Shown in pieces: positions 11,258-27,810 of a stretch of 64,000 nt of DNA. The notes under the pieces are model-generated. The model did not search any database, was not told where the DNA came from, and was given only the letters and a program-made list of their open reading frames with translations. Source of the stretch: Candidatus Dormiibacterota bacterium (GTDB lineage: Bacteria; Chloroflexota; Dormibacteria; Aeolococcales; Aeolococcaceae); assembly GCA_035995545.1 (NCBI GenBank), contig DASYKI010000016.1, positions 664,599-728,598 of the forward strand, in the 5' to 3' direction. The position numbers and the translations under genes were made by a program. The stretch's first letter is position 1. Each line of letters begins with the position of its first letter.

Positions 11258-11339
11258 CGTGGCCGCAGCATAGCCTGCCCCCGGCTTTCCGAGCGTGGCG
11301 CCATCTTGGGGGGTGCTAGAGTAGCCGCCCGGCGGCCGG

Positions 11340-11414
11340 GCCCAAGTAGCTCAGAGGTAGAGCAACGCCTTGGTAAGGCGTAGGCCGTGGGTTCGATTCC
11401 CACCTTGGGCTCCA
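11340..11414 (+). tRNA. tRNA-Thr (anticodon GGT), CCA encoded
   Basis: Cloverleaf folded by hand. Acceptor GCCCAAG/CTTGGGC, D-arm TAGCTCAGAGGTAGAGCA, anticodon stem-loop ACGCC-TTGGTAA-GGCGT (GGU), variable loop AGGCC, T-arm GTGGG-TTCGATT-CCCAC, discriminator T, then CCA. Confidence 0.85.
11365..11414 (+). repeat. 50-bp direct repeat, copy 1 (3' two-thirds of tRNA-Thr GGT) - candidate attL
   Basis: The sequence ACGCCTTGGTAAGGCGTAGGCCGTGGGTTCGATTCCCACCTTGGGCTCCA is identical at 26716-26765. Confidence 0.8.
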
Positions 11415-11970
11415 CCTGTCGCAACAGGGGAAAACGAGCTCACAGGCAGGGCTGCATCGCGTCCGTCCGCCCCATCCGCACCCGTCGGAGGGGTCTGGAA
11501 TGCGTGGGATGTTGACCTAGAAGAGCTGGGTCAACGCCTTCGACGATATTGACCTTCGAGGAAGGTCACGGAGGACGGGCGTCACAGCTCCGAGCGTCTC
11601 GCAGCCGAGTCGGATGCCGCTGAGCACTGGAACGCGACCGGCTTTGGGAGGAACGACGCACTCAAGCTACGAGCGAGAGGTGCTGTGACACGATCGCGGT
11701 CGACGACGGGGCAATGCCGCTGGGCATGCGCCGCGTCAAGGAGCGCCGCGATTTTCGTCACCGATGTGGTCAGCGAGCTGCTCATCAACGTGGTGCTGTT
11801 CGGCGTCTGGGCGCTGACTGTACACGGCTTCTTCTGGCCCGGCTTGGTGCTGGCCGGACGGAGCGTCGGCCTGGTGATGCACGCATGCACCGCGTCCGGA
11901 CAGCGCGATCACAAGTGGCGAGGTCGAGCGCGAGATGGAGCGACTGCGGCGAGGCGCTCGGGACGCGCAA

Positions 11971-11984
11971 ATCTGAGCCGGCTC
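11971..11984. terminator. perfect 14-bp palindrome CTGAGCCGGCTCAG at the 3' end of the PNPOx-like gene (possible bidirectional hairpin)
   Basis: The palindrome is read directly from the sequence and overlaps the stop codon of the 11983..12402 minus-strand gene. No U-tract is present, so terminator function is an inference. Confidence 0.3.
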
Positions 11985-12402
11985 AGGCCTCGGGGATGCG
12001 CCGTCCGGTGACCTCGTCGACGCGAATGCGGATCCACCGACCGCCTGCGGACGCGGCCCACGAGCGCAGCGGCCCCCGCCGCAGCCGTTCCAACTCGTGA
12101 GGGTCGGTGACCTCACTCGCGGTGCCACGCGCGATGACGCTCCAGCCCGCGTGGTAGAGCGGGCGCTGGTCATCAACCTCGAAGACGACCGCTGCACCGC
12201 CGGCGAGCGCACTGAGCTTGGTGCCTTCCATCGACCAGAAGACGATGGTGTCGGGAGTCTCCGCCAGGTAGTTCACCGGGACGATGTGGGGGCGGCCATC
12301 ATGGATGAAGCCCACACGTCCGACGAACGATCCGCGCTGCAGGAGACCGGTCGAATCCTCGCGTGTCAGCGTCTCGATGTGCGATTGAGAGTCATCCTGC
12401 AT
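11983..12402 (-). CDS. pyridoxamine 5'-phosphate oxidase family protein (PNPOx-like FMN/F420-binding split barrel)
   Basis: Protein-like sequence from MQDDSQSHIETLTREDSTGLLQRGSFVGRVGFI.. with the characteristic HIVPVNY..GxxxR-type pattern. The track ORF start at 12504 looks too far upstream. Confidence 0.55.
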   Translation of the reverse strand: MQDDSQSHIETLTREDSTGLLQRGSFVGRVGFIHDGRPHIVPVNYLAETPDTIVFWSMEGTKLSALAGGAAVVFEVDDQRPLYHAGWSVIARGTASEVTDPHELERLRRGPLRSWAASAGGRWIRIRVDEVTGRRIPEA

Positions 12403-12409
12403 CGCACTG

Positions 12410-13092
12410 TCAGGTCGCCGTGGACCCGTCGTTGGCTCGCCCTGCTTGCTGGCGGACCAGATAGACGGCAGCCTCCGTACGCCGCGACAGGCCAAGCTTG
12501 GCAAGAACGTTGGAGACGTAGTTCTTCACCGTCTTCTCGGCGAGGTGGATGCGTTCGCCGATCTGTCGATTCGTGAGTCCCTCGGCGACCAGTTCGAGAA
12601 TGCGCCGTTCCTGCGGAGTCAGGTGCTCGGGTCCCGCGACCTCGATGGGCTCCTCGCCGCGGATGCGGGCGAGGACGCGCTCGGTGACCGCGCCGTCGAG
12701 CAGCGACTCTCCCCTCGCTACCTTCTTGATTGCCTCTATCAGCTCGGGCCCCTGGATCTGCTTGAGGACGTATCCCGAGGCACCGGCCATGATCGACGTG
12801 AACAAGGCCTCGTCGTCCGCGAACGACGTGAGCATGAGGACGCGGGTGTCGGGATGCGCGGACCGGATGTCGCGGCAAGCCTCGATCCCTGACCGTCCCG
12901 GCATGCGCACATCCATGACCACGACGTCAGGGGCCTGCTCATCAGCCAGCACCACGGCCTCGTCGGCTGTGCCGGCCTCGCCCACAACCACCATCGTGGG
13001 CTGGGTCTCCAGGAGCGCGCGGAGGCCACGCCGCACGAGATCGTGGTCGTCGCAGAGAAGGACCCGGGTTGAACCGGTCGGCTCGTCCATGC
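12410..13092 (-). CDS. two-component response regulator, NarL/LuxR family (DevR/DosR-like)
   Basis: Receiver domain (RVLLCDDHDLVRRGLRALL.., phospho-acceptor in VVVMDVRMPG, LTSFADDE, K in GASGYVLK) followed by a LuxR HTH (LTPQERRILELVAEGLTNRQIGERIHLAEKTVKNYVSNVLAKLG). Start at ATG ~13092 (MDEPTGSTRV). Confidence 0.8.
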
Positions 13093-13198
13093 CCGCAGTG
13101 TACGGGCTGCCGCCGGAGCCGACCAGGGTCCTTCGGTCCAGGGGCACAGGTGCCCATGGTCTCTAGCCGGAGGGTGGGAGAGGGCGAAAGCTGGTCCC

Positions 13199-15822
<2,624 letters not shown>

Positions 15823-15960
15823 GTCGGTGTCCTCAACGGGGAGCCGCCCGGCTCGATGCGTTCTTTCTGTTGGAGGGTGGTCGCACGTGGCGCCGGGACG
15901 GCTCTCATCACACCCTCATCGTCGCGACATGACGCATCACCCGGCCAGGGCCGGACGTCG

Positions 15961-18728
15961 TCAGCTGCGGTGCTCTTCGGCCTGTGCGCGCGGGACCGAT
16001 GGCTCCTGCTGATGCTGCGGCTCCGCGCGACGCAGGTGGCGCACCGAGAGCCAGGGGCGATCCTGCCACGGCATCACGCGCACCTTGGCATCAACCACCA
16101 CCGCACCCGATGGCGACGAGATGACCGGGTTCAGGTCCATCTCGGCGACCTCCGGGATGTCGGCAGCGAGTTGGGCGACCCGCAGCAGTGCGTCCTCGAC
16201 CGCGGCGATGTCGACCGGTGGCGCACCGCGATGGCCGTGCAGCAGTGGGGCGCCACGGATCGACTCCACCAGCTCGTGCGCGTCGACGTCGGTGAGCGGC
16301 AGGATGCGGAAGGCGCGGTCGCCGAAGACCTCGACAGCGGTTCCGCCACTGCCGAACATGATCAGCGGACCGAAGAGCGGGTCCTGCACGACGCCGATGA
16401 TCAGCTCCACGCCACCTGGCACCATGTGCTGGACGATGGCGCTGTGCATCGACCCGCCGAGGCGCTGCGCCATCGCTGCGTAGGCATCTCGCACCTCGGC
16501 TGCGGTACGCAGGCCGAGCTGGACTCCGCCGACGTCGGTCTTGTGCACGATGCTGCCGGACGCAACCTTGAGCGCCACGGGAATGCCGATCTCGCTCGCC
16601 GCGCGCGCGGCCGCCGACGCCGACCCCACCAGGCGCGACGGGGCGGTGGCGATGCCGTAGGCGTGGAGCAGCGCCTCGGCGGCATCGGCGTCCATCCAGC
16701 AGCCGTCGGGATGCCCGTCCAGCGCGCTGGCCACCACCGCGCGTGCTGCATCGGCGTTGATGCCGTCCAGCACGGGGAGCACCCCCGGGGGACGCTCGCG
16801 CCAGCGCGCATAGCCGACCACCGCGGCAAGCGCCTCCGCCGCCGGCTCGACGAAGGCGAACGACGGCACGGTGCGGCCATCTGCGTGGGGAACGGGCGGC
16901 TCTTGCATGGCCAGGAACGTGGCGATGACCGGGATGTCCGCACTCGCCGACGCGCTGGCGATCGCCTTGGCAACGGCGCCGGTGTCCACGGTGCGGACCG
17001 GTGCGTGGATGGCAATCAGAGCGTCGACCTCGCCACTGGCGGCGATGGCGGTGAGCGCGGTGCGGTAGGCGTCGGCACCGGCACCGGCACCGAGGTCGAC
17101 GGGGTTGCTCACACCGGCGACCAGCGGGGCGGCACCGCGCAGCGTTTCTGCCAGCCGTGGGCCGAACTCGGGAATGGTCAGCCGAGCGGCGTCGAGGGCG
17201 TCGGCGGCGAGGATGCCCGCGCCCCCAGCGTTGCCGACCACGCCGACGCGGGGCCCCCGTGGCAATGGCTGGGTGGCCAGAAGCGTCCCCACCTCGAACA
17301 ACTGCCGTAGGTCGTCGACGCGGATGACGCCCGCCTGGTGGAAGAGCGCGTCGACCGCGGTGTCGGGCGTGGCCAGCGATGCGGTGTGCGACGCAGCCGC
17401 CCTGCCGCCCGCCGCGCTGCGGCCAGCCTTGACCGCGACGATCGGCTTGTGGCGCGCCACCCGCGGCGCGATGCGGGCGAAATCCCGTGGATTGCCGAAG
17501 GATTCGAGGTAGAGGAGGATGACGTCGGTGTCGGAGTCCTGGTCCCAGTAGCGGATCAGGTCGTTGCTGCTGACGTCGACCTTGTTGCCCATGCTGACGA
17601 AGCTGGAGACACCGATCCCGGCGCCCCGGGACCATTCCAGCATGGCGATGCCGAGCGCTCCCGACTGCGAGGCGAAGGCGACGTGGCCCGGTTCCGGGGG
17701 ACTGTCGATGAAGGTGGCGTTGAGCCGCACTGCGGCCGCGGTGTTGACGATGCCGATGCAGTTGGGACCGACGATGCGCATGCCGCCGCGGTGGGCATGC
17801 TCGACCACGGTGCGCTCCATCGCCGCCCCCGCGTCGCCCATCTCGCCGAAGCCCGAGGTGACGATGACCAGGTCGCGCACGCCCTTGGTCGCGCAGTCGT
17901 CGACCACTTGCAGGACGTCACGAGCGGGCACGGCGAGCACTGCGAGGTCGACGTCCCCGTCGATGTCGCCGACGCTCGGGTAGGCGACCAGTCCGGCCAC
18001 CTGTGCAGACCGCGGGTTCACCGGATACACAGGCCCCTGGAAGCCACCGGCGATCACGTTGTCGAGGATGGCACGGCCGATGCCGCCGTCCCGGCCCGCG
18101 CCGACCACTGCGACGGAGCGCGGGCGCAGCAGTCGCCGGACGGAGCGCACCGCCGCCGTCCATCCGCGCTCCTCAACGGCGGCGAGCGACTCGACCGTCT
18201 GGATGATCTCCATGGTCACCGTGACCACGCCGTGCTCACTCTGCCGCACGTCACGAAAGCCTGCGGCGTGGAAGACGTCGAGCATGCGCCGGTTGTGGGT
18301 GAGGGTCTCGGCGACGAACTGCGTGATGCCCTGCGCCCGCGCGTACGCGGCCAGGCACTCCAGCAGCAGTGTGCCGAGGCCGCGGCCCTGGTGCGCATCG
18401 GCCACGACGAAGGCCACCTCAGCGCTGGCGCCGTCGACCAGCCGGTCGTACCGCGCGACGGCCACGATGTCGTCCTGCAGCACTGCGACGAATGCCATGC
18501 GGTCGTGATAGTCGACATGGTGAACCGCTGCACGTCGCTGCCGGTGAGATGCGGTCGTGGCGTGAAGAACCGGAGGTAGACGGTCTCCGCCGAAAGGCGG
18601 GAGTGGAACGCGACCAGTCCCGGTCCGTCGTCCTCGCGGATCGGCCGAAGATGGACGGTGGCCCCGTCGGCGAGGACGGAGTCCAATTCCCACTGCGCCG
18701 GGTAGGGCGGTGCCCCGATGGTGGTCAT
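15961..18728 (-). CDS. GNAT acetyltransferase fused to NDP-forming acyl-CoA synthetase (CoA-binding + ATP-grasp); apparent single-base frameshift near 18515-18525
   Basis: The N-terminal GNAT is split between the 18216..18728 ORF (MTTIGAPPYPAQW..SDVQRFT) and the 15961..18693 ORF (HVDYHDRMAFVAVLQDD..QGRGLGTLLLE). Downstream lie a CoA-binding domain (VAVVGAGRDGGIGRAI), succinyl-CoA-synthetase-like segments and an ATP-grasp. The two frames join cleanly if one base is added at ..TTCACC|CATGTC. Confidence 0.6.
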
Positions 18729-18785
18729 CTCTGCGGCCTCATGGTAGGGGTGTGTCGGGGGCTTCGCTGCGGCTGGACGAGAGAC

Positions 18786-18813
18786 GGCCCGCCTGCCAGG
18801 TGGCAGACGGGCC
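18786..18813 (-). terminator. near-perfect 13-bp inverted repeat GGCCCGCCTGCCA-GG-TGGCAGACGGGCC (hairpin) downstream of the 18876..19506 gene
   Basis: The inverted repeat is read from the sequence. It sits between convergently ordered minus-strand genes. High-GC actinobacterial terminators often lack U-tracts, so the function is inferred. Confidence 0.35.
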
Positions 18814-18875
18814 GCGGTCCCATGCCTCTCGGCGAGGACCTCGCCGGCTCCCGCGTCATCCGACGCCGGGAGGGG

Positions 18876-19506
18876 TCAGGATGCCGTGGGCCGAGGCACG
18901 GTGAGCGGAGTGGCTGTGGTCGCCGCGGGCTTCTTGGCACGGGCACCCGCACGCCAGCCGACCAGCTCGAAGGCCATTGCTCCGAGCACGACGATGGCGG
19001 CGATCAGCAGGCCGATGGCGGCGTAGAGGGCGTACTGCCCAACCTGCCACCACCCGTAGGCGTTGAGCAGGAGGCCGCGGAGGGTCTCACCCATGAAGAG
19101 GGTGGTGCGCTGGCCGCTCAGCGTAGCGACCACCTTGGCGTCCGGAGTCGGCTTGGCCTGCTCGGCGACCAGCTTGCCGCTGACCTGGGAGTAGGTCTGG
19201 CCGGCGGCGACCTTCTGCAGGTGCACGTTGATGTAGTCGTTGGCATAGGCCTGCGCCTGCGGGCCCGTGGTCACGGCCTGCCCAGCGTACTGCGAGAGGT
19301 CCGCGTACTGAGTGTCGCCCAGCGTCTTGGCGTCGAAGCCGGGCGAACCCACGGCCGGGACGGAGATGTTCTGGGCGGCCAGCTCGTCGCCCACCATGTT
19401 GTGCGAGAAGCTGTTCGCCCAGAAGAGGAAGCCTGCGGCGAAGCTGAGGATGCCGATCAGTCCCACTTGCAGGACGATGATCCGCCAACGGATTCCCTTG
19501 GTCATT
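18876..19506 (-). CDS. membrane protein (N- and C-terminal TM helices flanking an extracytoplasmic domain), unknown function
   Basis: Protein-like from MTKGIRWRIIVLQVGLIGILSFAAGFLFW.. to ..ALYAAIGLLIAAIVVLGAMAF; the upstream part of the track ORF is low-complexity. Confidence 0.5.
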
Positions 19507-19614
19507 GTCGTTCTCCCGGCTGGTGATGATGGGTGTGGCCGGTTGACCACGGTTTCATCCTGGCTGCCGAGGCGTTGTCGCCCTAGAGGCAGGCGCCCTA
19601 GATTGCCGGCGGGA

Positions 19615-19660
19615 GGAAGGTCCCGGGTCGGGACGAAGGTCCCTGGTGGCACCCGGGACG
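19615..19660 (-). promoter_or_regulatory. cluster of GGGAC/GTCCC palindromes including GGGAC-GAAG-GTCCC (DosR/DevR-box-like core) upstream of the membrane-protein gene
   Basis: GGAAGGTCCCGGGTCGGGACGAAGGTCCCTGGTGGCACCCGGGACG read from the sequence, ~110-150 bp upstream of the minus-strand start at 19506; the match to the TTSGGGACTWWAGTCCCSAA consensus is limited to the core. Confidence 0.35.
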
Positions 19661-19699
19661 CGAGACGGGGCTGTCAGCCCTCGTAGTTGGCCGCGATCC

Positions 19700-20270
19700 G
19701 CGCTGCATAGCGCTCCGCGACCACGTGTGGTATCCGGCGAAGACCGCGTCGCAGCGCACCAGGATCTCGCCATCGCGTGCGACCGCCACGTCGACTCCCG
19801 GAAGCGGCGGCCGCACCGTGCCGAAGCGCACGGCGCCGATGGGATTGACGCTGGTGACCCCGACGTCGTCCGACATCTCGTACAGGTCGCAGAGCTCGAC
19901 CCCGACCGCGTGGACGAAGCGAAGCACTTCGGGGGAGATCGGTGCTGCAGCGGTGATCATCACCGTCGCCTGGTCGAGACCCAGTCGGGCGCGAATCCGG
20001 CGCAGCACGAGGCGGTCCGCCAGCGCGAGTCGCCGTCCACGCGACGTGCGCACCGTCGTTGCTGTCTGCCGGCGCTCGACCGTGCGCCGTCCTCGGCGAT
20101 GGCCCAGCGGGCGAGAAGGCGCCGCGGACCGCGCTGCTCGCCGACGGCGTGTGGATGCGGTCGGCGATCTTCTCCCAGACTCGGGGTACGCCGACGAAGC
20201 ACTCACGGACGCCATGGGCCACCGGGTCCAATGGCACTGGCGGCACTGCGCGCAGCGTCGGAGAGTGCAA
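19700..20270 (-). pseudogene. frameshifted, truncated fragment of a long-chain fatty-acid--CoA ligase (FadD-like)
   Basis: Two minus frames carry consecutive pieces of the AMP-binding family. One has FVGVPRVWEKIADRI. The other has LGLDQATVMITAAAPISPEVLRFVHAVGVELCDLYEMSDDVGVTSVNPIG..GTVRPPLPGVDVAVARDGEILVR..VFAGYH. The N-terminal ~300 aa and the C-terminal domain are absent. Confidence 0.5.
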
Positions 20271-20301
20271 GGTACCCACCCTGTCATCCGAGGAGATTTG
20301 C

Positions 20302-21406
20302 CATGGCTGTCATGACACAGTTGTCTGCAGGCACCCGCACGCAGACGGGAACGATGCGCGCCTTCGTCATCGCCGGGGTCGGCAAGACCGCCGTCGTGGA
20401 GAAGCCGATTCCCGAGCCGGGACCGGAGGAGGCCGTGGTACGCACGACCGCCGCGCTGGTCTGCACCTCAGATGTGCACACTGTGCGCGGCGCCATCGCG
20501 GTCCCGGCGGGCCGAACACTCGGACACGAGTCCGTGGGCGTGATCCACAGCCTGGGCTCGGCGGTGCAGGGTTTCACGGTCGGCGAGCGCGTCGCCGTCG
20601 GCGCGATCACCCCGTGCTTCCGTTGCGAGTATTGCCAGCGTGGCTTCACCTCGCAGTGCAAGGGGATGCTCGGCGGCTACAAGTACACCACCCAGATCGA
20701 CGGCAACATGGCCGAGTACTTCATCGTCCCGGCGGCCGAGGCCAACCTCACCCGCATCCCTGCCGACCTGCCCGACGAGAAGGCGGTCTACGCCTGCGAC
20801 ATGCTCTCCACCGGCTTCGTCGGCGCCGAGCACGCCGAGCTGTTGCTCGGTGAGACGGTCGCCATCTTCGCCCAGGGACCCGTCGGCCTTGCCGCCACGA
20901 TCGGCTGCAAGCTGCTGGGAGCCGGCCTGATCATCGCCGTCGAGTCGATGCCCAATCGCCAGGCGCTGGCCCGTCGCTTCGGCGCCGACGCCATCGTCGA
21001 CTTCACCAAGGGTGATCCCGTCGAGCAGATCCTCGCGCTGACCGACGGCAAGGGTGTCGACGCGGCCATCGAAGCGTTCGGGTTCCCGCAGACCTTCGAG
21101 GCGGCGATCCGCGCCACCAAGCCCGGCGGCCGCATCTCCAACATCGGCTACCACGGCGAGAACCCCGCGCCGCTGCAGATCCCGCTGGAGCCGTTCGGCA
21201 TGGGCATGTCCGACAAGACCATCCGCACCGGCCTCTGCCCCGGCGGCAGCGAGCGCCTCGGCCGTCTTCTGCGCCTGATGCAGACCGGCAAGGTCGACCC
21301 CACGCCGATGACGACGCACCGCTTCAAGTTCGACGACATCTCCACGGCGTTCGAGATGATGACCGCCAAGGCGGACGGCATCATCAAGCCGCTGATCACC
21401 TTCTGA
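20302..21406 (+). CDS. adh: zinc-dependent alcohol dehydrogenase (MDR superfamily, NADP secondary-ADH-like)
   Basis: Contains GHESVGVIHSLG (catalytic Zn), a CFRCEYCQ-type region, and a GQGPVGL-type cofactor segment (AIFAQGPVGLAATIG). Start at ATG 20302 or 20353. Confidence 0.8.
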
Positions 21407-21439
21407 TCCCATACCCCCCACATCCCAGGTGGCAACCCC

Positions 21440-21904
21440 ATGCCCAGCAAGAAGACCATCGACGAGTTCCTGGCGCAGAAGCACGTCGCCTTCGTCGGCG
21501 TCTCGCGCAACCCCAAGCAGTTCGCCAACGCCATCTACCGTGAGCTGTGCGACGGCGGGCGCACGCTGTACCCGGTCAACCGCAACCCCGAGGTCACGAC
21601 CATCGAGGGCGACCGCTCCTACCAGCGCCTCGCCGACGTGCCCGATCCGGTGGACGGGGTCTTCGTCATGGTGGCCGCCAAGGATGCCGCAGACGTGGTG
21701 CGCGAGGCGGTGGCGCGCGGCATCCCGCGCGTCTGGCTGCATCGCGGGCTCGGTCCCAACTCGGTGTCGGCGGAGGCCGTCGCGATCTGCGCGGAGAACG
21801 GCGTCGACGTTGTCGACGGTGCGTGCCCATTGATGTTCGTCGAGCCGGTCGGATTCATCCACCGCATCCATCACGGGCTGGCGCGTCATCGCTTCGCAGC
21901 CTGA
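21440..21904 (+). CDS. CoA-binding domain protein (YccU/YneT-like)
   Basis: 154 aa; VAFVGVSRNPKQFANAIYREL.. Rossmann-like CoA-binding pattern. Confidence 0.7.
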   Translation: MPSKKTIDEFLAQKHVAFVGVSRNPKQFANAIYRELCDGGRTLYPVNRNPEVTTIEGDRSYQRLADVPDPVDGVFVMVAAKDAADVVREAVARGIPRVWLHRGLGPNSVSAEAVAICAENGVDVVDGACPLMFVEPVGFIHRIHHGLARHRFAA

Positions 21905-21931
21905 CCAGCGGCACCCGAGGAGCTCCAGATA

Positions 21932-22534
21932 ATGGCAACAGCAAGCTATCCGGTCCACCTGGACGTCGACTACGATGTGGGGCCTCGCGATCGTTTCACC
22001 GTCCTGCTTCGGGCGGTCGTCGCCATCCCCGCGCTGGTTGTGCTGGCGACGCTCGGCAGCGCCAACAACATCGGCGCGAGCGGGGCCGGCGGCCTCTTCC
22101 TGGCCACCCTGCTGATGCTGGTCTTCCGGCACAAGTACCCGGGGTGGTGGTTCGACTGGACCTTGAACCTGACGCGCTTCTCCAACCGCGTCTTCGCCTA
22201 CCTCCTGCTCTTGCGCGACGAGTATCCGTCCACGGATGACGAGCAGCACGTGCACCTGGTTCTTCCCGATCCGCAGGGCGGCGCGGCACTCAATCGGTGG
22301 CTGCCCCTGGTCAAGTGGCTGCTCGTCATTCCTCACCTCGTCGTCCTGGTGGTGTTGTGGGCCGCCGCCGTGGTGGTGACCATCGTGTCCTGGGTGGCGA
22401 TCCTGGTGACCGGCCACCACCCGCGTTCGCTCCACGACTTCGTCGTCGGCGTGTTCCGCTGGAGCCTGCGCGTCGAGGCCTATGCCTTCGCACTGGTGAC
22501 CGACGTGTATCCGCCGTTCCGCCTCGCGGAGTGA
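21932..22534 (+). CDS. DUF4389-like membrane protein
   Basis: 200 aa, two hydrophobic segments with conserved YPGWWFDWTLNLTRF / IPHLVVLVVLW pattern. Confidence 0.55.
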   Translation: MATASYPVHLDVDYDVGPRDRFTVLLRAVVAIPALVVLATLGSANNIGASGAGGLFLATLLMLVFRHKYPGWWFDWTLNLTRFSNRVFAYLLLLRDEYPSTDDEQHVHLVLPDPQGGAALNRWLPLVKWLLVIPHLVVLVVLWAAAVVVTIVSWVAILVTGHHPRSLHDFVVGVFRWSLRVEAYAFALVTDVYPPFRLAE

Positions 22535-22808
22535 CGGTCTGCCGAGGCTGCGTGGCGCGCCGTCACACCTCGCCAGCGCATCCTCGAGTCGCTCGTCGCC
22601 ACCCCACCGGGCCGTCAGGTCGTCACGGAACGATCAGCCGGTGGCGGCGAACGGTGACGCTGTGCTCGGTCACCCGACTCAGCATCGCCAGGTGCCATGC
22701 AGCGGCGCCAGAGGCCAACGATGGCAACACGTCCGCGCCGTCGCGGCACCACGGTCCCAACGCCCTCGGCCATTCGCCTCTGTCCGGTGGGACCGGCACC
22801 GGGTCAGC

Positions 22809-23336
22809 ATGTGGTGCATCGAGGACCACATGAGGACGATCGACATGACCGCCACCGGCGACACCGCCCTGCGCCCAGCGCTCAGCGTCTGGGAGGAGAA
22901 CCTGTTCTCGCACTTCGTCGAGCACACCGACCAGGAGACGGCCGTCCTTGCCGTCTACGAAGATCTGGCCGAGAGCAGCCCCAACGAGTTTGTCCGCTAC
23001 CTCGCGGCGCTGCTGCTCGAAGACGAGCGGCGCCACCACCGCATCTTCACCCAGCTCGCCAACACGATGGTCTCGCAGGCGAACCTGATCAGCCGCCCGG
23101 ATGACGTGCCGTCGCTCACCCCCGCCAAGGACGGTGGTGAACTGCGGGCGCTGACCGAGCGCCTGATCGCGCTGGAGGAGGACGACAAGACCCAGCTGGC
23201 CCGCCTGCGCAAGGAGTTGAAGCCGGTGCGTGACACCACCATCTGGGACCTGCTGGTGCAGCTCGCCGAGCGGGACACTGAGAAGCACCTGCTCGTCCTT
23301 CGCTTCATCGCCGGCGTCGCCAAGGGCAGCCCCTGA
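22809..23336 (+). CDS. hypothetical protein
   Basis: Protein-like composition (..EENLFSHFVEHTDQETAVLAVYEDLAESSPNEFVRYLAALLLEDERRHH..). The start is ambiguous among ATGs at 22809, 22830 and 22845, and the upstream part of the track ORF is low-complexity. Confidence 0.4.
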   Translation: MWCIEDHMRTIDMTATGDTALRPALSVWEENLFSHFVEHTDQETAVLAVYEDLAESSPNEFVRYLAALLLEDERRHHRIFTQLANTMVSQANLISRPDDVPSLTPAKDGGELRALTERLIALEEDDKTQLARLRKELKPVRDTTIWDLLVQLAERDTEKHLLVLRFIAGVAKGSP

Positions 23337-23372
23337 CCCGCCTCGAGCGTCTTGCGGGAGCGTAGGGAACCG

Positions 23373-24032
23373 ATGACCACCCGGAGACGCGCGCTCACCG
23401 TGTGCCTGGTCGCGCTGGTTGCCACCACCGCCGCGTTCGGCCGCTCCAAGCTGCTGCGCTGGGGTGCCACGGACGACGAGGTCGGTGAGCACCTGCCCGG
23501 CGACGACCTGGTCGCCGATCCGCATCTCGTGGCCACCCGCGCGATCACCATCCACCGGCCGGCGAGGGACGTGTGGCCGTGGGTGGCTCAACTCGGCCAT
23601 GGCAAGGCGGGCTTCTACAGCTACGACGTCCTCGAGAACCTGGTTGGGTGCCACATCCACAACGCGAACCGGATCGTTCCTGCCTGGCAAGAGATTCGCG
23701 TCGGTGATGACGTGCGTCTCGCTCCGGAAGTCCGCCTCGACGTGCGCATCGCCGACCCATCAGGCGCCCTGGTCCTGGGCGGAGGCGTACCGATGGGCAA
23801 TGCTGGGCCACTCTTCGACTTCAGCTGGGCGTTCGCGCTGCGCGACGCAGGCGAGGGTGGCACCCGCCTCCTCATCCGGGAACGCTATCGCTATCTGCAT
23901 CCGTGGGTGCGACTGATGGTGGAGCCCGTCGAGGTGGTGAGTTTCGTGATGACCCAGAAGATGCTGCGCGGCATCAGGGACCGAGCCGAAGCGACAGGAT
24001 CGTCACCACAGAACGCTGCTACAAGTCCGTGA
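23373..24032 (+). CDS. SRPBCC-like (polyketide cyclase/START-fold) protein with N-terminal signal/TM segment
   Basis: ATG 23373 MTTRRRALTVCLVALVATTAAFG..; size and pattern are consistent with the SRPBCC family; low certainty. Confidence 0.5.
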   Translation: MTTRRRALTVCLVALVATTAAFGRSKLLRWGATDDEVGEHLPGDDLVADPHLVATRAITIHRPARDVWPWVAQLGHGKAGFYSYDVLENLVGCHIHNANRIVPAWQEIRVGDDVRLAPEVRLDVRIADPSGALVLGGGVPMGNAGPLFDFSWAFALRDAGEGGTRLLIRERYRYLHPWVRLMVEPVEVVSFVMTQKMLRGIRDRAEATGSSPQNAATSP

Positions 24033-24036
24033 CCTG

Positions 24037-24051
24037 CTGACCTCAGGTCAG
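24037..24051. terminator. palindrome CTGACCT-C-AGGTCAG immediately after the SRPBCC-like gene stop
   Basis: Read from the sequence; the terminator or operator role is an inference. Confidence 0.3.
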
Positions 24052-24110
24052 TGGTTTGGTCGCGATCTCGTTCCCGAGCGTGCGTCACCGCCTCGTCACC
24101 GCTAGGGAGC

Positions 24111-24136
24111 AAGGTCCGCGCGACGAGCGGGACCTT
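24111..24136 (+). promoter_or_regulatory. inverted repeat AAGGTCCGC-N8-GCGGGACCTT, 55-80 bp upstream of the HD-GYP gene
   Basis: Read from the sequence; the same AAGGTCC(C) word occurs twice in the 19615-19660 cluster. Confidence 0.3.
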
Positions 24137-24191
24137 CGTACGTGGTGAGCAGGCGTTCGGCCCTCGTCACGACAAGAAGCCTGTCACCACC

Positions 24192-25613
24192 ATGGCCCAA
24201 ATGCCAAGAGCCCTGGAGACATCACGCGATGAGCCGCCGCTGACGATTGCACGTCCGGAGATCGACTACCAGCTCATCGCGGAGGCGATCCCCCACATCG
24301 TCTGGCTGGCGACGCCGGACGGGTCCATCGAGTACGTCAACCGCCGCGCAAGCGACTACACGGGGCTGTCGCGCGAGGTCACGTATGGATGGGGTTGGCT
24401 CTCCATGGTCCACCCGGAAGATCGCGCCCGTGTCCAAGCGGCATGGGAGCGCGCGACCCGAACCGAGACTCCCTACGAGATCGAGTACCGGCTTCGCCGC
24501 GCCGACGCAACCTACCGGTGGTTCGCGTTTCGCAGCCTGCCCGCTCGCGACGCGGATGGACACACCGTTCGCTGGATCGGTACGGCGACCGACATCCAGG
24601 ACGCCAAACGGCTGAAGGACGAGTTGCGCAGGGCCAACCGGCAGAACCTCGAAACCATCACTCTGCTGGAGACCCTCCAGGCCACCGCACCGTTGGGCCT
24701 GGGCTTCATCGACCGAGACTTCCGCATCGTGCAGCTCAACGACCGGTTGGCAGCGGTCACCGGCGGATCCGCCGCTGACCACGTCGGCAAGAAGGTGCCG
24801 GACGTCGTGCCTGCGCTCTGGCCGACGCTTGAACCTCTCTACCGGCGCGTCCTGAAGGGGGAGCCGATCCTCAACCGGGAGATGAGCGGTCCGTCCGCCG
24901 AGGACGGCGGTGGCCGCCACAGCTGGCTCAGCAGCTATTACCCCGTGCGGGTTGGCGATGAGGTGATCGGTATCGGCGTCGTCGTCGTGGACATCACCGA
25001 ACGCAAGCGAGCCCAGCAGGCGCGTGACGAGTTGACCCGGTCCGCGGTGGGGGCGATCGTGGCCATCGTCGAAGCACGCGACCCGTACACAGCAGGCCAC
25101 CAGAGGAGGGTGGGCGAGCTCTCGGCAGCCATCGGCGCCGAGATGGGCCTGGACCAGTTCGCGATCGAGGGCATCCGCCTTGCCGGGACCATCCACGACA
25201 TCGGCAAGATCCGCACCCCGGCCGAGATCCTGACACGCCCTGGGAAGCTGCGGCCGGCCGAATACGAGCTGGTCAAGAGCCACAGCCGCGACGGACACGA
25301 CATCGTCGCGGACATCGACTTTCCCTGGCCGGTGCCCCAGATGATCCTGCAGCATCACGAGCGCTGCGATGGGAGTGGCTACCCGGACGGCTTGCGACGC
25401 GACGAGATCACTCTGGGTGCCCGCATCATCGCCGTCGCCGATGTCGTCGACGCGATGACGTTACCGCGTCCATACCGGGTGGGCCTCGGGCTCCCCGCCG
25501 CCATCGAGGAGCTCAGCAACGGTCGCGGGAGCCTGTTCGACCCGGAGGCGGTCGACGCGCTGCTTCGTCTCTGCAAGGAGGGCCGAGTGTGTTTCGACCG
25601 GCCATCAGCGTGA
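24192..25613 (+). CDS. PAS/PAC-PAS sensor fused to HD-GYP domain (putative c-di-GMP phosphodiesterase)
   Basis: Two PAS-like modules (IVWLATPDGSIEYVNRR.., LGLGFIDRDFRIVQLND..) then HD (AGHQRRVGELS..IHDIGKI) and GYP (CDGSGYPDGL) motifs. Start at ATG 24192. Confidence 0.75.
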   Translation: MAQMPRALETSRDEPPLTIARPEIDYQLIAEAIPHIVWLATPDGSIEYVNRRASDYTGLSREVTYGWGWLSMVHPEDRARVQAAWERATRTETPYEIEYRLRRADATYRWFAFRSLPARDADGHTVRWIGTATDIQDAKRLKDELRRANRQNLETITLLETLQATAPLGLGFIDRDFRIVQLNDRLAAVTGGSAADHVGKKVPDVVPALWPTLEPLYRRVLKGEPILNREMSGPSAEDGGGRHSWLSSYYPVRVGDEVIGIGVVVVDITERKRAQQARDELTRSAVGAIVAIVEARDPYTAGHQRRVGELSAAIGAEMGLDQFAIEGIRLAGTIHDIGKIRTPAEILTRPGKLRPAEYELVKSHSRDGHDIVADIDFPWPVPQMILQHHERCDGSGYPDGLRRDEITLGARIIAVADVVDAMTLPRPYRVGLGLPAAIEELSNGRGSLFDPEAVDALLRLCKEGRVCFDRPSA

Positions 25614-25650
25614 CGCACTCTGCGCTGATGCGCCTCCGTCTGGCTGGGAT

Positions 25651-26611
25651 ATGACCGCACCCACCACGATCGGTGGCCACCTTCTGCAGCGCGACCCGCC
25701 GGGACGCCTGTACGTTCGGCACTACGCGCTCCTCGGAGCGGCACCCTCGCGCATGGCGGCAGCGGCTGCCCTCGCATACGTGGTGGCGACGCCCTTCGGG
25801 CCGCACCGCAAGCTCCTCGACATCTTCATGGGCGGTGCCGTCTCCTCAACGTCCTCGTCGCTCTGGTCGTGGGAAAGGTGGTCAGCAGTCGATGGGAGAC
25901 GTACTTCTTCGACGCATGGAGCACAGGCAGCCTGCTGCTGGCGTTCGCCTGGGCGCAGATCGGCGGCGGCGCAAAGCCCGTTGGGGTGGCTGCTCATCCT
26001 CCCCGTCATCTACGCGTCAATCAACGACCCGGTTGCCCACACGGCGGTCGTCGCGGTCGCCGCGCTGGCCGGTGCGCTCGGGCTCATGGCTACGGGCAAC
26101 GCATGGGGCAGCGAGGGGTGGTTCCGCGTCCTGTTCATCGCAACCTTCGACGTCATGGCGGTCGCCTCGGCCGTCAACCGCCCTGCAGCTGGTGCCGCAT
26201 CAGATCGACCCGGCGCCGCTGGGTACGGCGACCCACATCGTGCTTCCGCTCGCGCCTGACCTCCTCGCTCTGGTGGGACCGAGGGTGCTGCACGCTCTGG
26301 CCGCCGATCAGCTCGTCGATCGCATCAACGAGCTGGAGGTTGAGGCCGCCGCGGAGTTCGTGTACCAGCGCCCTCCGCGGACTTCGGGGAGCTGGTCGCC
26401 CGCCGCTCCGGCGTCGGTGCCGCGAGGCCCTGACCACCCGAGGGGTCGGATCGCTCGACTGCCGTGTTGCTGCGCGCCGCAGGCCGGGGCCGTCGCCCGT
26501 CGCGGCGAGGTGGGGGAGGGGCAGGTTGAGGTGGGCGCCGGAGCGTGTGTTCAACGGCAGCACTCTCGGTCCGCCGCCATCCAGGCTCATCCGCGATGCA
26601 GGAAGCGTTGA
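25651..26611 (+). pseudogene. degraded gene for a membrane-anchored protein (multiple frameshifts)
   Basis: Membrane-helix-like stretches continue across three frames (..LLNVLVALVVGKVVSSRWETYFFDAW.. / ..LGWLLILPVIYASINDPVAHTAVVAVAALAG..FRVLFIATFDVMAVASAV.. / ..LVGPRVLHALAADQLVDRINELEVEAAAEFVY..); no intact ORF. Confidence 0.3.
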
Positions 26612-26715
26612 CCGACGGCGGCGTTGGACAAACGTATGATCGGTGGCGTCATCGCCCCTCCGGCGAGCTCGGAAACGGCATGACGGCACAGTGCGGCGAA
26701 CCCCCGTTCCAGCCC

Positions 26716-26765
26716 ACGCCTTGGTAAGGCGTAGGCCGTGGGTTCGATTCCCACCTTGGGCTCCA
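26716..26765 (+). repeat. 50-bp direct repeat, copy 2 (tRNA-Thr 3' fragment without the 5' half) - candidate attR
   Basis: Exact 50/50 match to 11365-11414 in the same orientation. The upstream sequence does not form the tRNA 5' half, so this is a partial tRNA copy. Confidence 0.8.
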
Positions 26766-26793: not shown

Positions 26794-26829
26794 TTGACGC
26801 CCGTGCCAGCCAGCCGCTATGGTCTGACC
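26794..26829 (+). promoter_or_regulatory. sigma70-like promoter (-35 TTGACG, 18-bp spacer, -10 TATGGT) overlapped by palindrome GGTCTGACC (candidate GntR operator) - P1, upstream of the VOC-cupin-hyuAB-ligase unit
   Basis: gcaTTGACGcccgtgccagccagccgcTATGGTCTGACCatcagtctgacc read from the sequence. Confidence 0.5.
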
Positions 26830-26865
26830 ATCAGTCTGACCGTCAACGTTGGGGCTTGTTTGTTC

Positions 26866-27773: not shown

Positions 27774-27810
27774 GTTGCGCAATGGCTGAGTCGTGCAATG
27801 GCTGACTGGC
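27763..27810. repeat. 3 tandem copies of a 16-bp unit (CAATGGCTGAGTTGCG / CAATGGCTGAGTCGTG / CAATGGCTGACTGGCG) spanning the cupin stop and hyuA start
   Basis: Read from the sequence. Copy 1 holds the cupin stop (AAT GGC TGA). Copy 3 holds the hyuA start (ATG GCT GAC). Each of copies 1 and 2 also contains an ATG followed by an in-frame TGA 7 codons later. Confidence 0.85.

What the first reader, a model, noticed from the sequence alone, without database searches (positions are those of the whole stretch)
11340..26765. Exact 50-bp repeat of the tRNA-Thr(GGT) 3' end brackets a 15.3-kb segment: candidate decayed integrated island
The last 50 nt of the intact tRNA (11365-11414) recur perfectly and in the same orientation at 26716-26765, with no tRNA 5' half there. 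That is the classic signature left by site-specific integration into a tRNA 3' end (reconstituted tRNA at one side, partial copy at the other). The bracketed segment begins with a noticeably less GC-rich junction (11415-11700). It contains a frameshifted gene, a FadD fragment and a multiply frameshifted ORF next to the distal repeat. I cannot find a tyrosine/serine recombinase or excisionase in any frame. So this would be an old, immobilised element whose recombinase has been lost.
Basis: seen in the sequence. Interest (0 to 1): 0.7.

Follow-up and report, generated by a model that had tools for sequence, protein, structure and literature searches.

The report
Integrase-less tRNA-Thr island carrying hypoxia regulon
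A 15.3-kb block of oxygen/stress-response genes in an uncultured soil bacterium sits between an intact threonine tRNA gene and a perfect 50-base copy of that gene's end, which is the scar of site-specific insertion; it carries no recombinase of its own, so it is an ordinary decayed or helper-dependent genomic island.

Summary
tRNA-Thr(GGT) lies at 11340-11414, and its last 50 nt recur exactly and in the same orientation at 26716-26765. Chance expects none.

The repeat runs from tRNA position 26 (start of the anticodon stem) to the CCA end. This is the anticodon-centred type of attachment site.

Synteny with five relatives stops exactly at the tRNA's last base. The island-side sequences next to each repeat copy recur in relatives in other contexts: 11415-11581 at 89% in L005, and 26590-26715 at 79% in L107. 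They therefore behave as conserved att arms.

No recombinase or relic was found in the island or elsewhere in the window.

The cargo is a DevR/DevS-like hypoxia two-component system with USP, PNPOx, GNAT/acyl-CoA synthetase, ADH and PAS-HD-GYP genes. It also holds a truncated AMP-binding gene and a frameshifted membrane-protein pseudogene. Island genes have lower GC3 than flanking genes (0.86 vs 0.92).

One relative carries an 8.9-kb deletion derivative, so the island is old. The perfect repeats are then unexplained.

No empty site was found.

Verdict: a decayed, integrase-less (CIME-like) tDNA island, a new member of a known kind and of modest interest.

The parts
11340..11414 (+). Intact tRNA-Thr(GGT) with encoded CCA. 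Proposed attL: host 5' half plus core.
   Evidence: ARAGORN. Rfam tRNA 75.8 bits. 100% identical in relatives L001, L002, L003 and L005.
11365..11414 (+). Repeat copy 1, the core. It runs from tRNA position 26 (start of the anticodon stem) to the 3' CCA.
11415..11581 (+). Conserved non-coding module directly after the tRNA; proposed P' arm. It contains two palindromes: GTTGACC-N11-GGTCAAC at 11511-11535 and TGACCTTC-GAG-GAAGGTCA at about 11550-11568.
   Evidence: 89% identical to the sequence after the tRNA in relative L005, after which the two diverge abruptly. Absent after the tRNA in L001-L003. Folds more stably than shuffles, z = -3.5. No coding signal.
11685..12011 (+). Possible small two-transmembrane ORF, or a remnant of one. 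Uncertain.
   Evidence: Coding log-odds signal only at 11700-11820. Weak Pfam 2TM hit, E = 0.047. Not called as a gene in the source contig.
11983..12402 (-). Pyridoxamine-5'-phosphate-oxidase family flavoprotein (Pyridox_ox_2).
   Evidence: Pfam E = 5.5e-23. Gene call. Singleton at the 90% cluster level.
12410..13090 (-). NarL/LuxR-family response regulator, DevR/DosR-like.
   Evidence: Pfam Response_reg plus GerE. Best PDB match is M. tuberculosis DevR 3c3w, E = 4.8e-61 over the full length.
13199..13687 (+). Protein of unknown function, 162 aa.
   Evidence: Gene call. No Pfam hit.
13674..14849 (-). GAF-HisKA_3-HATPase sensor histidine kinase, DevS/DosT-like.
   Evidence: Pfam. The GAF domain matches DosT/DevS GAF-A structures 2vzw and 2w3d at E = 1e-43 to 1e-47.
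14908..15822 (-). Tandem universal stress protein.
   Evidence: Pfam Usp, two stretches, E = 1.2e-39.
15961..18498 (-). GNAT acetyltransferase fused to an ADP-forming acyl-CoA synthetase.
   Evidence: Pfam Acetyltransf_1, CoA_binding_2, Succ_CoA_lig, ATP-grasp_5. Gene call.
18876..19505 (-). Membrane protein of unknown function, 209 aa.
   Evidence: A similar unknown gene sits next to the GNAT-ACS gene in L105.
19611..19643 (.). Two adjacent DosR-box-like palindromes, GGGAGGAAGGTCCC and GGGACGAAGGTCCC, about 105-140 nt upstream of the membrane-protein gene.
   Evidence: Four of the five window matches to GGGAC-N4-GTCCC (up to 1 mismatch) lie inside the island.
19598..20053 (-). Truncated AMP-binding (FadD-like) gene fragment; a pseudogene.
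   Evidence: Pfam AMP-binding, profile positions 284-384 of 384 only, below the cut-off. 151-aa gene call.
20303..21406 (+). Zn-dependent alcohol dehydrogenase.
   Evidence: Pfam ADH_N and ADH_zinc_N. The 90% cluster has members from other samples.
21440..21904 (+). CoA-binding protein (CoA_binding_2).
   Evidence: Pfam. The exact protein is found on 3 contigs. An 86% nucleotide homologue in L107 is truncated at its 5' end.
21932..22534 (+). DUF4389 membrane protein.
   Evidence: Pfam. The 90% cluster has 8 members from several samples.
22809..23336 (+). Protein of unknown function, 175 aa. A DosR-box-like site lies at 22745-22758, about 50 nt upstream.
23373..24032 (+). Protein that NCBI names SRPBCC family.
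   Evidence: No Pfam hit.
24201..25613 (+). PAS-PAS-HD(HD-GYP type) signalling protein.
   Evidence: Pfam PAS_4 (two stretches) and HD_5. Apart from identical copies, the best homologue is only 62% identical.
25650..26400 (+). Multiply frameshifted pseudogene of a multi-pass membrane protein. It is not a recombinase.
   Evidence: The codon log-odds scan switches frames +1/+0/+1/+2. The six-frame pieces look hydrophobic by eye. No Pfam hit at E up to 10.
26590..26715 (+). Non-coding sequence directly upstream of the distal repeat; proposed P arm. It contains GCGTTGACC...GTTGGACAAACGTATGATC.
   Evidence: 79% identical to L107 6987-7104, which there also precedes a tRNA-Thr 3' fragment but lies in a different genomic context. 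No coding signal.
26716..26765 (+). Repeat copy 2: the displaced 3' fragment of tRNA-Thr (proposed attR core), followed by the VOC gene flank.
   Evidence: The Logan contig ends at 26745, inside it.

Best explanation
The segment 11415-26715 is a genomic island that entered the 3' end of tRNA-Thr(GGT) by tyrosine-integrase-type site-specific recombination.

An element-borne attP (arm 26590-26715, a 50-bp tRNA-like core, arm 11415-11581) recombined with the tRNA gene, with the crossover in the anticodon stem-loop region. The tRNA was rebuilt with the element's copy of the 3' part, giving attL. The host's original 3' 50 nt were pushed 15.3 kb downstream next to the VOC gene, giving attR.

The island now has no recombinase, excisionase, replication, transfer or phage genes. 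It cannot move on its own. It is either a fossil or a cis/trans-mobilisable (CIME-like) element that needs an integrase encoded elsewhere.

Its cargo is a self-contained DevR/DevS-type gas/redox-sensing two-component system with typical 'dormancy regulon' genes. These are USP, PNPOx-like flavoprotein, GNAT/acyl-CoA synthetase, alcohol dehydrogenase, CoA-binding protein and a PAS-HD-GYP signalling protein. It also carries decay products.

Shown here: the repeat and its geometry, the synteny break, the conserved arms, the lack of a recombinase, the cargo homologies, and the decay.
Inferred: the integrase mechanism, the arm assignment, and regulation of the cargo by the DevR-like regulator.
For: 1. 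The 50-nt direct repeat is exact, with 0 expected by chance. It is a 3' fragment lying downstream in the same orientation. It ends at the CCA and begins at tRNA position 26. This passes every Islander filter except the integrase filter and matches the 'anticodon-centred' attP class (PMC4383910).
2. The left flank 1-11414 is syntenic with L001, L002, L003, L005 and L006. Where a contig runs past the tRNA (L001, L002, L003), homology ends at its last base.
3. The island-side arms are conserved independently of the cargo. Positions 11415-11581 recur after the tRNA in L005 at 89% and then diverge. Positions 26590-26715 plus a tRNA-Thr 3' fragment recur in L107 at 79%, next to different genes.
4. 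In L107 a tRNA fragment, rather than the intact tRNA, precedes remnants of the same island (response-regulator 3' end, CoA-binding gene, DUF4389). This is what tandem accretion at one att site would produce.
5. Island genes have lower GC3 than flanking genes: 0.86 vs 0.92, Mann-Whitney p = 2.6e-4. Island GC is 0.689 against 0.73 in the flanks.
6. Five left-block proteins are singletons at 90% identity. The PAS-HD protein has no homologue between 62% and 100%. In contrast the flank proteins have 89-91% relatives.
7. No recombinase was found.
8. Independent assemblies reproduce the architecture.
Against: - No empty site (tRNA directly followed by VOC) and no attP-form element with an integrase was found in any collection.
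- No relative shows an integrase next to this tRNA.
- The module 11415-11581 diverges from L005 by about as much as the flanking core genes do (89%). It could therefore be vertically inherited, native tRNA-downstream DNA rather than an element arm.
- Arm conservation at 79-89% is no higher than neutral expectation between these relatives, so it does not prove constraint.
- If the island predates the split from L107's lineage, 50/50 identity of a neutral fragment is improbable. L107's own fragment has about 4 changes in 57 nt.
- Whole-region GC and tetranucleotide deviation is modest and matched elsewhere in the window.
- All comparison material is fragmentary metagenome contigs.
Confidence: 0.75

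Rival explanations
1. The element is still mobile without its own integrase. It would be a CIME-like or satellite island that is excised and integrated in trans by a tyrosine integrase encoded elsewhere in the genome, or on a co-resident element that targets the same tRNA-Thr. This is a sub-case of the best explanation and differs only in present-day activity.
For: The 50/50 repeat is perfect even though L107 shows the island is old. Non-coding arms are retained on both sides and recur in relatives. L107 looks like tandem accretion at the same site. CIMEs are defined as elements that kept attL and attR but lost their integration and transfer genes, and they are mobilised after accretion (PMC5704250).
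Against: No integrase with this specificity was seen. No attP or attB junction was found in any collection searched. Arm conservation is not above neutral expectation. Only 64 kb of the genome is visible.
Confidence: 0.2
2. No integration took place. The distal copy is a pseudo-tRNA: a second tRNA-Thr(GGT) gene, or a local duplication of the tRNA's 3' part, that lost its 5' half by deletion. The 15 kb between the copies would then be ordinary, fast-evolving chromosome.
For: No recombinase is present and no empty site was found. In the 89% relative the VOC-adjacent copy (L009) shows at least 54 nt of tRNA identity, so it could be a full tRNA. Rfam scores 26686-26762 just above the tRNA threshold, with 5 of 7 pseudo-acceptor pairs. 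The module after the intact tRNA is as conserved as the core genome.
Against: The identity block starts exactly at the anticodon stem and ends exactly at CCA, with a sharp drop from 100% to background. That is a recombination-junction pattern, not decay. The upstream arm plus fragment recurs as a unit in L107 in another context. The sequence upstream of the fragment is unrelated to the region upstream of the intact tRNA, since the repeat does not extend beyond 50 nt. The GC3 shift and the patchy distribution of the enclosed genes also argue against it. None of 80 VOC loci in other genomes has a tRNA-Thr nearby.
Confidence: 0.1
3. Assembly artefact: a metagenome contig mis-joined at a 50-bp shared tRNA sequence, so that the two repeat copies are not 15.3 kb apart in any real genome.
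For: The window is a metagenome contig. The Logan contig breaks inside the repeat.
Against: The junction of island end and partial tRNA is present in an independent Logan assembly, up to 30 nt into the repeat. An NCBI MAG contig of 952 kb has the same proteins in the same order across both ends, with consecutive accession numbers. A 50-bp repeat is shorter than normal read length. The break in a k-mer unitig assembly is what a true two-copy repeat would give.
Confidence: 0.03

Closest known systems
tDNA-integrated genomic islands as defined by Islander (Hudson, Lau & Williams 2015, PMC4383910), anticodon-centred ('A') attP class
   Same: An intact tRNA gene plus a displaced cognate 3' fragment, downstream and in the same orientation. 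The fragment reaches the 3' end. Length is 15.3 kb. The identity block begins at the anticodon stem. The island lies between the two copies. Tandem arrays occur at the same tDNA (suggested here by L107).
   Different: No integrase gene lies inside or overlaps the island, so Islander's integrase filter would reject it. No phage, conjugation or replication genes are present.
CIMEs (cis-mobilisable elements) and decayed ICE/IME remnants, described mainly in streptococci (review PMC5704250)
   Same: The element is flanked by attL and attR-like repeats. It lacks integration and transfer genes. It contains decayed genes. A relative shows an arrangement compatible with accretion of another element at the same att site.
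   Different: Descent from an ICE or IME is not shown. Mobilisation is not shown. The host is an uncultured high-GC soil bacterium that NCBI labels Candidatus Dormibacteraeota, and the target is a tRNA-Thr gene. No partner ICE or integrase has been identified.
Mycobacterial DevR(DosR)-DevS/DosT dormancy two-component system and its regulon
   Same: The response regulator matches DevR over its full length (E = 5e-61). The kinase GAF domain matches the DevS/DosT GAF-A domain (E about 1e-43 to 1e-47). Co-located USP, PNPOx-like and alcohol dehydrogenase genes are typical regulon members. GGGAC-N4-GTCCC palindromes lie at promoter-like positions.
   Different: The kinase has one GAF domain (391 aa), not two. 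Heme binding and the gas ligands were not tested. The motif count is not above chance for the whole window. The genes are packaged in one att-flanked 15-kb block instead of being dispersed chromosomal loci.
Actinomycete integrative and conjugative elements (AICEs, e.g. pSAM2 or SLP1; some reported to use tRNA-Thr). This comparison is from my own recollection and was not checked here.
   Same: High-GC host. Integration into a tRNA 3' end, with an identity block of about 45-60 bp running from the anticodon arm to the 3' end.
   Different: No int/xis, rep, FtsK-like tra or spd genes are present. No similarity to plasmid or phage records.

Membership tests
tDNA genomic island (Islander criteria) | A full tDNA plus a cognate tDNA fragment in the same replicon. 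A 3' fragment must lie downstream and in the same orientation. | tested here: met
   tRNA-Thr(GGT) at 11340-11414 (+). Exact 50-nt 3' fragment at 26716-26765 (+).
tDNA genomic island (Islander criteria) | The fragment is an end fragment (it reaches the tRNA 3' end), not an internal piece, and does not overlap a conserved protein domain. | tested here: met
   Identity ends at the CCA. The VOC gene starts at 26866 and its Pfam domain lies further downstream.
tDNA genomic island (Islander criteria) | Length of 2-200 kb. | tested here: met
   15,351 nt from repeat start to repeat start.
tDNA genomic island (Islander criteria) | A tyrosine integrase gene inside or overlapping the island. | tested here: not met
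   No Phage_integrase or any other recombinase family was found in the called genes. None was found in six-frame pieces of 11415-12050 and 25560-26730 at E up to 10, or in the ORFs scanned across 27-64 kb.
tDNA genomic island (Islander criteria) | An empty attB in a related genome, or detection of the excised attP form (supporting evidence, not part of the algorithm). | tested here: not met
   No tRNA-Thr|VOC junction in metagenome contigs. None in relatives L001-L003 and L005. No tRNA-Thr near VOC in L010 or in 80 genome loci. L009 is ambiguous.
CIME (cis-mobilisable element) | attL and attR sites retained. | tested here: met
   Perfect 50-bp direct repeats, with conserved flanking arms.
CIME (cis-mobilisable element) | Integration and transfer genes lost. 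| tested here: met
   None detected.
CIME (cis-mobilisable element) | Derived from an ICE or IME, and mobilisable after accretion with a functional element that uses the same att site. | not testable with these tools
   L107's layout (arm, tRNA fragment, island remnant) is compatible with accretion. No functional partner element, integrase or excision product was seen.
DevR/DevS (DosRST) dormancy system | NarL-family response regulator orthologous to DevR. | tested here: met
   Best PDB hit is 3c3w (DevR), E = 4.8e-61, covering residues 9-218. Orthology as such was not tested by phylogeny.
DevR/DevS (DosRST) dormancy system | Sensor kinase with a heme-binding GAF-A domain, plus HisKA_3 and HATPase domains. 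| tested here: inconclusive
   The GAF domain matches DosT/DevS GAF-A at E about 1e-43 to 1e-47, and HisKA_3 and HATPase_c are present. There is only one GAF domain, and the heme-ligand residues were not checked.
DevR/DevS (DosRST) dormancy system | DosR-box palindromes upstream of regulon genes. The consensus TTSGGGACTWWAGTCCCSAA is from my own knowledge. | tested here: inconclusive
   Five matches to GGGAC-N4-GTCCC (up to 1 mismatch) against 6.5 expected in the window. Four of the five lie in the island, including a tandem pair at 19611/19630 and one at 22745 in promoter-like positions.
Prophage / AICE / ICE | Phage structural genes, or conjugation and replication genes. | tested here: not met
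   All island genes are regulatory, metabolic or unknown. No match to viral contigs, phage records or plasmid records other than phage-borne tRNA genes.

The most novel reading that the evidence does not exclude
A complete gas/redox-sensing DevRS-type 'dormancy' regulon travels among Candidatus Dormibacterota as an integrase-less, att-flanked cassette. A tRNA-Thr-specific integrase encoded elsewhere would excise and insert it in trans. This would explain the pristine 50-bp repeats, the arms conserved in relatives, and the apparent tandem accretion in L107.
Probability: 0.15. Interest if true: 0.5.

Novelty: new member of a known kind. Interest (0 to 1): 0.3.

Why it matters
This is a clean example of an integrase-less island bounded to the nucleotide by a tRNA gene and its displaced fragment, in a poorly known, uncultured soil lineage. 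Integrase-requiring predictors such as Islander would miss it.

The cargo is a whole DevR/DevS-like hypoxia-response module. This suggests that dormancy and low-oxygen physiology in these bacteria can be gained, lost and eroded as a block.

The finding does not change how such islands are understood to work. Hypoxia loci acquired horizontally have been described before (e.g. PMC5720804).

Tried and rejected
- Genome collection scan with the left-flank LPG_synthase_TM protein: 338 pattern matches, none confirmed.
- Metagenome scan for the attR/empty-site junction CGATTCCCACCTTGGGCTCCAGATCGCGT: 0 hits. Even the source contig is not in that collection.
- Metagenome scan with the island GNAT-ACS protein: only relatives at 50% identity or less on the best segment over long matches (one 51-residue stretch reached 80%), and no att context.
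- Genome scan with VOC: 80 loci at 66-76% identity, none with a tRNA-Thr nearby.
- Viral contig scans. The tRNA 3' 28-mer hit only a tRNA array in a 147-kb viral contig, which is irrelevant. The module palindrome and the P-arm 19-mer gave no hits.
- The 50-mer against phage and plasmid records: only phage-borne or plasmid tRNA-Thr genes at 82-84% identity.
- Integrase relic search: Pfam at E up to 10 on ten six-frame pieces from the two ends gave nothing. tblastx of the ends against all loci gave only high-GC noise.
- The ORF that follows the module in L005, a possible integrase N-terminus: no Pfam hit and no similarity to any locus.
- Arm-type repeat search between the two arms: shared 8-10-mers are not above shuffles. 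TTGACC is too frequent to be meaningful outside the module.
- Similarity of L107's 290 nt after its tRNA fragment to the window's module, to the VOC flank or to L005: not above shuffles.
- P0044, the VOC protein of the NCBI MAG, could not be located on a contig. The 952-kb contig could therefore not be read directly.
- I first read L009's 54-nt tRNA identity as a possible empty site. I dropped that reading once L107 showed that the arm next to the core is itself tRNA-like in that stretch.

Full report
OBSERVATION.

The window holds two tRNA genes: tRNA-Thr(TGT) at 1935-2006 and tRNA-Thr(GGT) at 11340-11414, both on the + strand (Rfam 74-76 bits).

The last 50 nt of the second tRNA (11365-11414) recur exactly and in the same orientation at 26716-26765 (family D3). 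I read both copies. Identity stops on both sides, with A/C at 11364/26715 and C/G at 11415/26766. A 28-mer from the repeat, allowing 3 mismatches, has only these two matches in 64 kb, against 0 in 100 shuffles.

The repeat begins at tRNA position 26, the base before the anticodon stem ACGCC/GGCGT, and ends with the encoded CCA. ARAGORN calls no tRNA at the distal copy. Rfam gives 26686-26762 a borderline 29.4 bits (cut-off 29), because the 30 nt upstream can form 5 of 7 acceptor-like pairs.

WHERE THE SEQUENCE COMES FROM AND WHETHER THE ARCHITECTURE IS REAL.

The window is 100% identical to JGI metagenome 3300035673, contig Ga0372939_0000057 (108 kb).

A Logan assembly of SRR11678605 gives a 14.2-kb contig that is 100% identical to 12516-26745. 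It ends 30 nt into the distal repeat, which is where a k-mer unitig must stop if that sequence occurs twice.

An NCBI MAG labelled Candidatus Dormibacteraeota carries the same proteins on a 952-kb contig. The accession numbers are consecutive (HEV7679807 PNPOx through HEV7679823 hydantoinase A), so the gene order holds across the island and its right junction. A mis-join is therefore unlikely.

GENE CONTENT.

I combined frame-specific GC analysis, Pfam and the source contig's gene calls. The segment holds these genes:

| Coordinates | Strand | Product |
|---|---|---|
| 11983-12402 | - | PNPOx-family flavoprotein |
| 12410-13090 | - | NarL/LuxR response regulator |
| 13199-13687 | + | unknown |
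| 13674-14849 | - | GAF-HisKA_3 histidine kinase |
| 14908-15822 | - | tandem USP |
| 15961-18498 | - | GNAT / ADP-forming acyl-CoA synthetase |
| 18876-19505 | - | membrane protein |
| 19598-20053 | - | AMP-binding fragment (C-terminal end of the domain only) |
| 20303-21406 | + | Zn alcohol dehydrogenase |
| 21440-21904 | + | CoA-binding protein |
| 21932-22534 | + | DUF4389 |
| 22809-23336 | + | unknown |
| 23373-24032 | + | unknown (NCBI: SRPBCC family) |
| 24201-25613 | + | PAS-HD(GYP) protein |

The response regulator's best solved relative is M. tuberculosis DevR/DosR (3c3w, E = 4.8e-61, full length). The kinase's GAF domain matches the DosT/DevS GAF-A structures (E about 1e-43 to 1e-47). 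The cargo is thus a DevRS-type gas/redox two-component system together with genes typical of a dormancy or hypoxia regulon.

Palindromes of the DosR-box core type (GGGAC-N4-GTCCC, up to 1 mismatch) are no more frequent than chance in the whole window (5 against 6.5 expected). However, 4 of the 5 lie in the island. A tandem pair sits at 19611/19630, upstream of the membrane-protein gene, and one sits at 22745, upstream of 22809-23336. This is suggestive only.

A 60%-identical homologue of the PAS-HD gene in another metagenome (L105) lies in a similar neighbourhood of PNPOx genes, GNAT-ACS and an unknown membrane protein. The gene set is therefore a recurrent functional module.

RECOMBINASE SEARCH.

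- No integrase, excisionase, transposase, replication, transfer or phage family appears among the island genes.
- None appears in ten six-frame pieces covering 11415-12050 and 25560-26730 at E up to 10.
- None appears in 20 further ORFs across 33-64 kb, which are all metabolic, transport or regulatory.
- A codon log-odds scan trained on the window's genes shows that 25650-26400 carries + strand coding signal hopping between frames +1, +0, +1 and +2. The pieces read as a multi-pass membrane protein.

The stretch 11415-11982 is essentially non-coding, apart from a short 2TM-like signal at 11700-11820.

COMPARISON WITH RELATIVES.

The left-flank protein (LPG_synthase_TM, 10181-11257) has relatives at 91, 78 and about 70-74% identity, all from metagenomes or MAGs.

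Contigs L001, L002 and L003 (about 70%) are collinear with window 1-11414 and carry an identical tRNA-Thr(GGT). Homology to the window ends at the tRNA's last base, and what follows differs in each contig (a Phd/zeta toxin-antitoxin pair in L001, for example).

The closest relative, L005 (JGI 3300045000), is 89% identical in nucleotides over 1.8 kb. It has the tRNA followed by a homologue of window 11415-11581 and then unrelated sequence.

From the same sample, L009 starts with 54 nt of tRNA-Thr 3' sequence followed by the VOC-cupin flank. I first considered this a possible empty site, but it is ambiguous (see the L107 results below).

L010 (VOC 81%) has urease genes and TauE upstream of VOC and no tRNA. 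None of 80 genome loci holding VOC homologues (66-76%) has a tRNA-Thr nearby. No empty-site allele was therefore found.

THE MOST INFORMATIVE RELATIVE: L107.

L107 (JGI 3300060322) was reached through the 90% cluster of DUF4389. Its segments match the window as follows:

| L107 coordinates | Window match | Identity | What it is |
|---|---|---|---|
| 6987-7160 | 26590-26765 | 79% | sequence upstream of the distal repeat plus the tRNA fragment |
| 7162-7451 | none above shuffles | - | about 290 unrelated nt |
| 7452-7563 | 12442-12553 | 90% | 3' end of the response-regulator gene |
| 7564-8632 | 21496-22562 | 86% | CoA-binding gene (minus its first 56 nt) plus DUF4389 |

The response-regulator remnant is fused directly to the CoA-binding gene. 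L107's tRNA fragment has about 4 changes in 57 nt, including a compensatory pair in the T stem.

Three conclusions follow.

First, L107 is a deletion derivative lacking window 12554-21495, with genes truncated on both sides of the junction. A window-like gene block therefore predates the split of these lineages.

Second, the unit 'arm 26590-26715 plus tRNA 3' part' recurs in a different genomic context. In L107 it lies to the left of the island remnants, preceded by unrelated and partly fragmentary genes.

Third, L107 has arm plus fragment where the window has the intact tRNA. This is what integration of a further element of the same att type into an already occupied tRNA would give (tandem accretion), followed by more decay.

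The arm's last few bases are themselves tRNA-like: window CAGCCCACGCC, L107 GAGCAAGCGCC, tRNA GAGCAACGCC. For this reason L009's 54 nt cannot be taken as proof of an intact tRNA.

COMPOSITION AND DISTRIBUTION.

Island GC is 0.689, against 0.730 in the left flank and 0.729 at 26.8-41 kb. Another stretch at 41-64 kb has GC 0.705, and tetranucleotide deviation is modest (maximum z = 2.6, matched at 34-40 kb).

At the gene level, island genes have lower GC3 than flanking genes: mean 0.86 vs 0.92, Mann-Whitney p = 2.6e-4.

At 90% clustering among about 15 billion proteins, PNPOx, the response regulator, the kinase, USP and GNAT-ACS are singletons. PAS-HD has nothing between 62% and 100%. ADH, DUF4389 and the flank proteins (cupin, hydantoinase A) do have relatives at 90% or above, and LPG synthase and VOC have relatives at 89-91%. 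The island is thus patchily distributed and mosaic.

INTERPRETATION.

The geometry is the signature of tyrosine-integrase integration into a tRNA gene, as formalised by Islander. That is: a full tDNA, a cognate 3' end fragment downstream in the same orientation, the island between them, and an identity block starting at the anticodon arm (the 'A' class) (PMC4383910). Every Islander filter is passed except the integrase filter.

Under this model attL is tRNA 5' half, core, then 11415-11581 (P' arm). attR is 26590-26715 (P arm), core, then the VOC flank. The recurrence of each arm next to tRNA-Thr sequence in different relatives fits that assignment.

With attL and attR retained and no integration or transfer genes, the element fits the operational definition of a CIME or decayed island (PMC5704250). 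Descent from a conjugative element and any mobilisation remain untested.

WHAT DOES NOT FIT.

If the island is older than the split from L107's lineage, a neutral 50-nt relic should have picked up several substitutions, as L107's has. The window's is perfect. Recent re-integration, occasional excision that re-exposes the fragment to selection as part of the tRNA, or gene conversion could each explain this. I cannot decide between them.

The module 11415-11581 is no more conserved than the neighbouring core genes. It could therefore be vertically inherited.

No integrase was seen next to this tRNA in any relative.

RIVALS.

- A duplicated or truncated second tRNA-Thr gene is disfavoured (about 0.1). 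The reasons are the junction-like sharpness and position of the identity block, the arm-plus-fragment unit recurring in another context, and the compositional and distributional distinctness of the enclosed genes.
- An assembly artefact is disfavoured (about 0.03) by three concordant assemblies.

VERDICT.

The segment is an integrase-less, partly decayed island at tRNA-Thr(GGT). 'Immobilised' and the empty-site test remain open.

It is a new member of a known kind. Its most interesting aspects are its cargo, a complete DevRS-type hypoxia module in a Dormibacterota-labelled MAG, and the combination of old age with pristine att repeats.

Noticed in passing
window 26818-26838: TATGGTCTGACCATCAGTCTG, just upstream of the VOC gene, is invariant in the window, L009 (89% relative) and L010 (81% relative), while the surrounding non-coding DNA diverges. 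It contains a TGGTCTGACCA palindrome. In L010 a GntR/FCD regulator gene sits inside the operon, and the window has one at 33202-33939. It is probably a GntR-type operator for the VOC-cupin-hydantoinase cluster.
   Followed up: partly
window 11511-11535 and about 11550-11568: Two palindromes built on TTGACC/GGTCAA lie in the module after the tRNA. They are conserved in L005, with the only change in a loop. The 176-nt stretch folds more stably than shuffles (-79.9 kcal/mol, z = -3.5). They could be protein-binding sites (arm-type or regulator sites) or RNA hairpins.
   Followed up: partly
window 19611-19643 and 22745-22758: DosR-box-like palindromes (GGGAGGAAGGTCCC, GGGACGAAGGTCCC, GGCACCACGGTCCC) lie at promoter-like positions inside the island. 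Four of the five such matches in the 64-kb window are in the island.
   Followed up: partly
L107 7105-7161: The tRNA-Thr 3' fragment in this relative differs from the tRNA by a compensatory T-stem change (GTGGG/CCCAC to GAGGG/CCCTC) plus a T-loop G-to-A change. That would be expected if this copy once served as the 3' half of a working tRNA in another lineage, or on an element.
   Followed up: no
L107 7452-7564 (window 12553 | 21496): This is a precise fusion of the response-regulator 3' remnant to a 5'-truncated CoA-binding gene, equal to an 8,942-nt deletion relative to the window. Upstream genes in L107 (TPP_enzyme_C 148 aa, PALP 139 aa) are also fragments, so the whole neighbourhood is decaying.
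   Followed up: partly
L001 8694-9699; L002 and L003 upstream of the tRNA: In every relative the tRNA-Thr(GGT) 3' end is a synteny breakpoint, with different genes after it in each. L001 has a Phd antitoxin and a zeta-toxin-like pair there. The site looks like a general hotspot for variable DNA in this lineage.
   Followed up: partly
window 26686-26762: Rfam's tRNA model scores the distal fragment plus 30 upstream nt at 29.4 bits, just over the gathering score of 29. Annotation pipelines may therefore report a spurious or pseudo tRNA here.
   Followed up: yes
window 1935-2006: A second threonine tRNA, tRNA-Thr(TGT), lies 9.3 kb upstream. It is conserved at the equivalent place in L001 and L002. 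No fragment of it was seen.
   Followed up: no
window 27348-31541 and 33202-57584: The region to the right of the island is a long block of nitrogen-compound catabolism genes. It includes hydantoinase/oxoprolinase A and B, AMP-binding ligase, a GntR regulator, aldolases, two more VOC proteins, a peptide ABC transporter (SBP_bac_5, permease, two ATPases), several amidohydrolases and an M20 peptidase. None of it is syntenic with the 10 kb after the tRNA in the 70% relatives.
   Followed up: partly
L104 (IMG/VR UViG_3300033388_006651) 440-2946: The only viral contig that shares the tRNA 3' 28-mer is a 147-kb viral contig (probably a large phage) with an array of 13 tRNA genes. It is unrelated to the finding.
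   Followed up: yes
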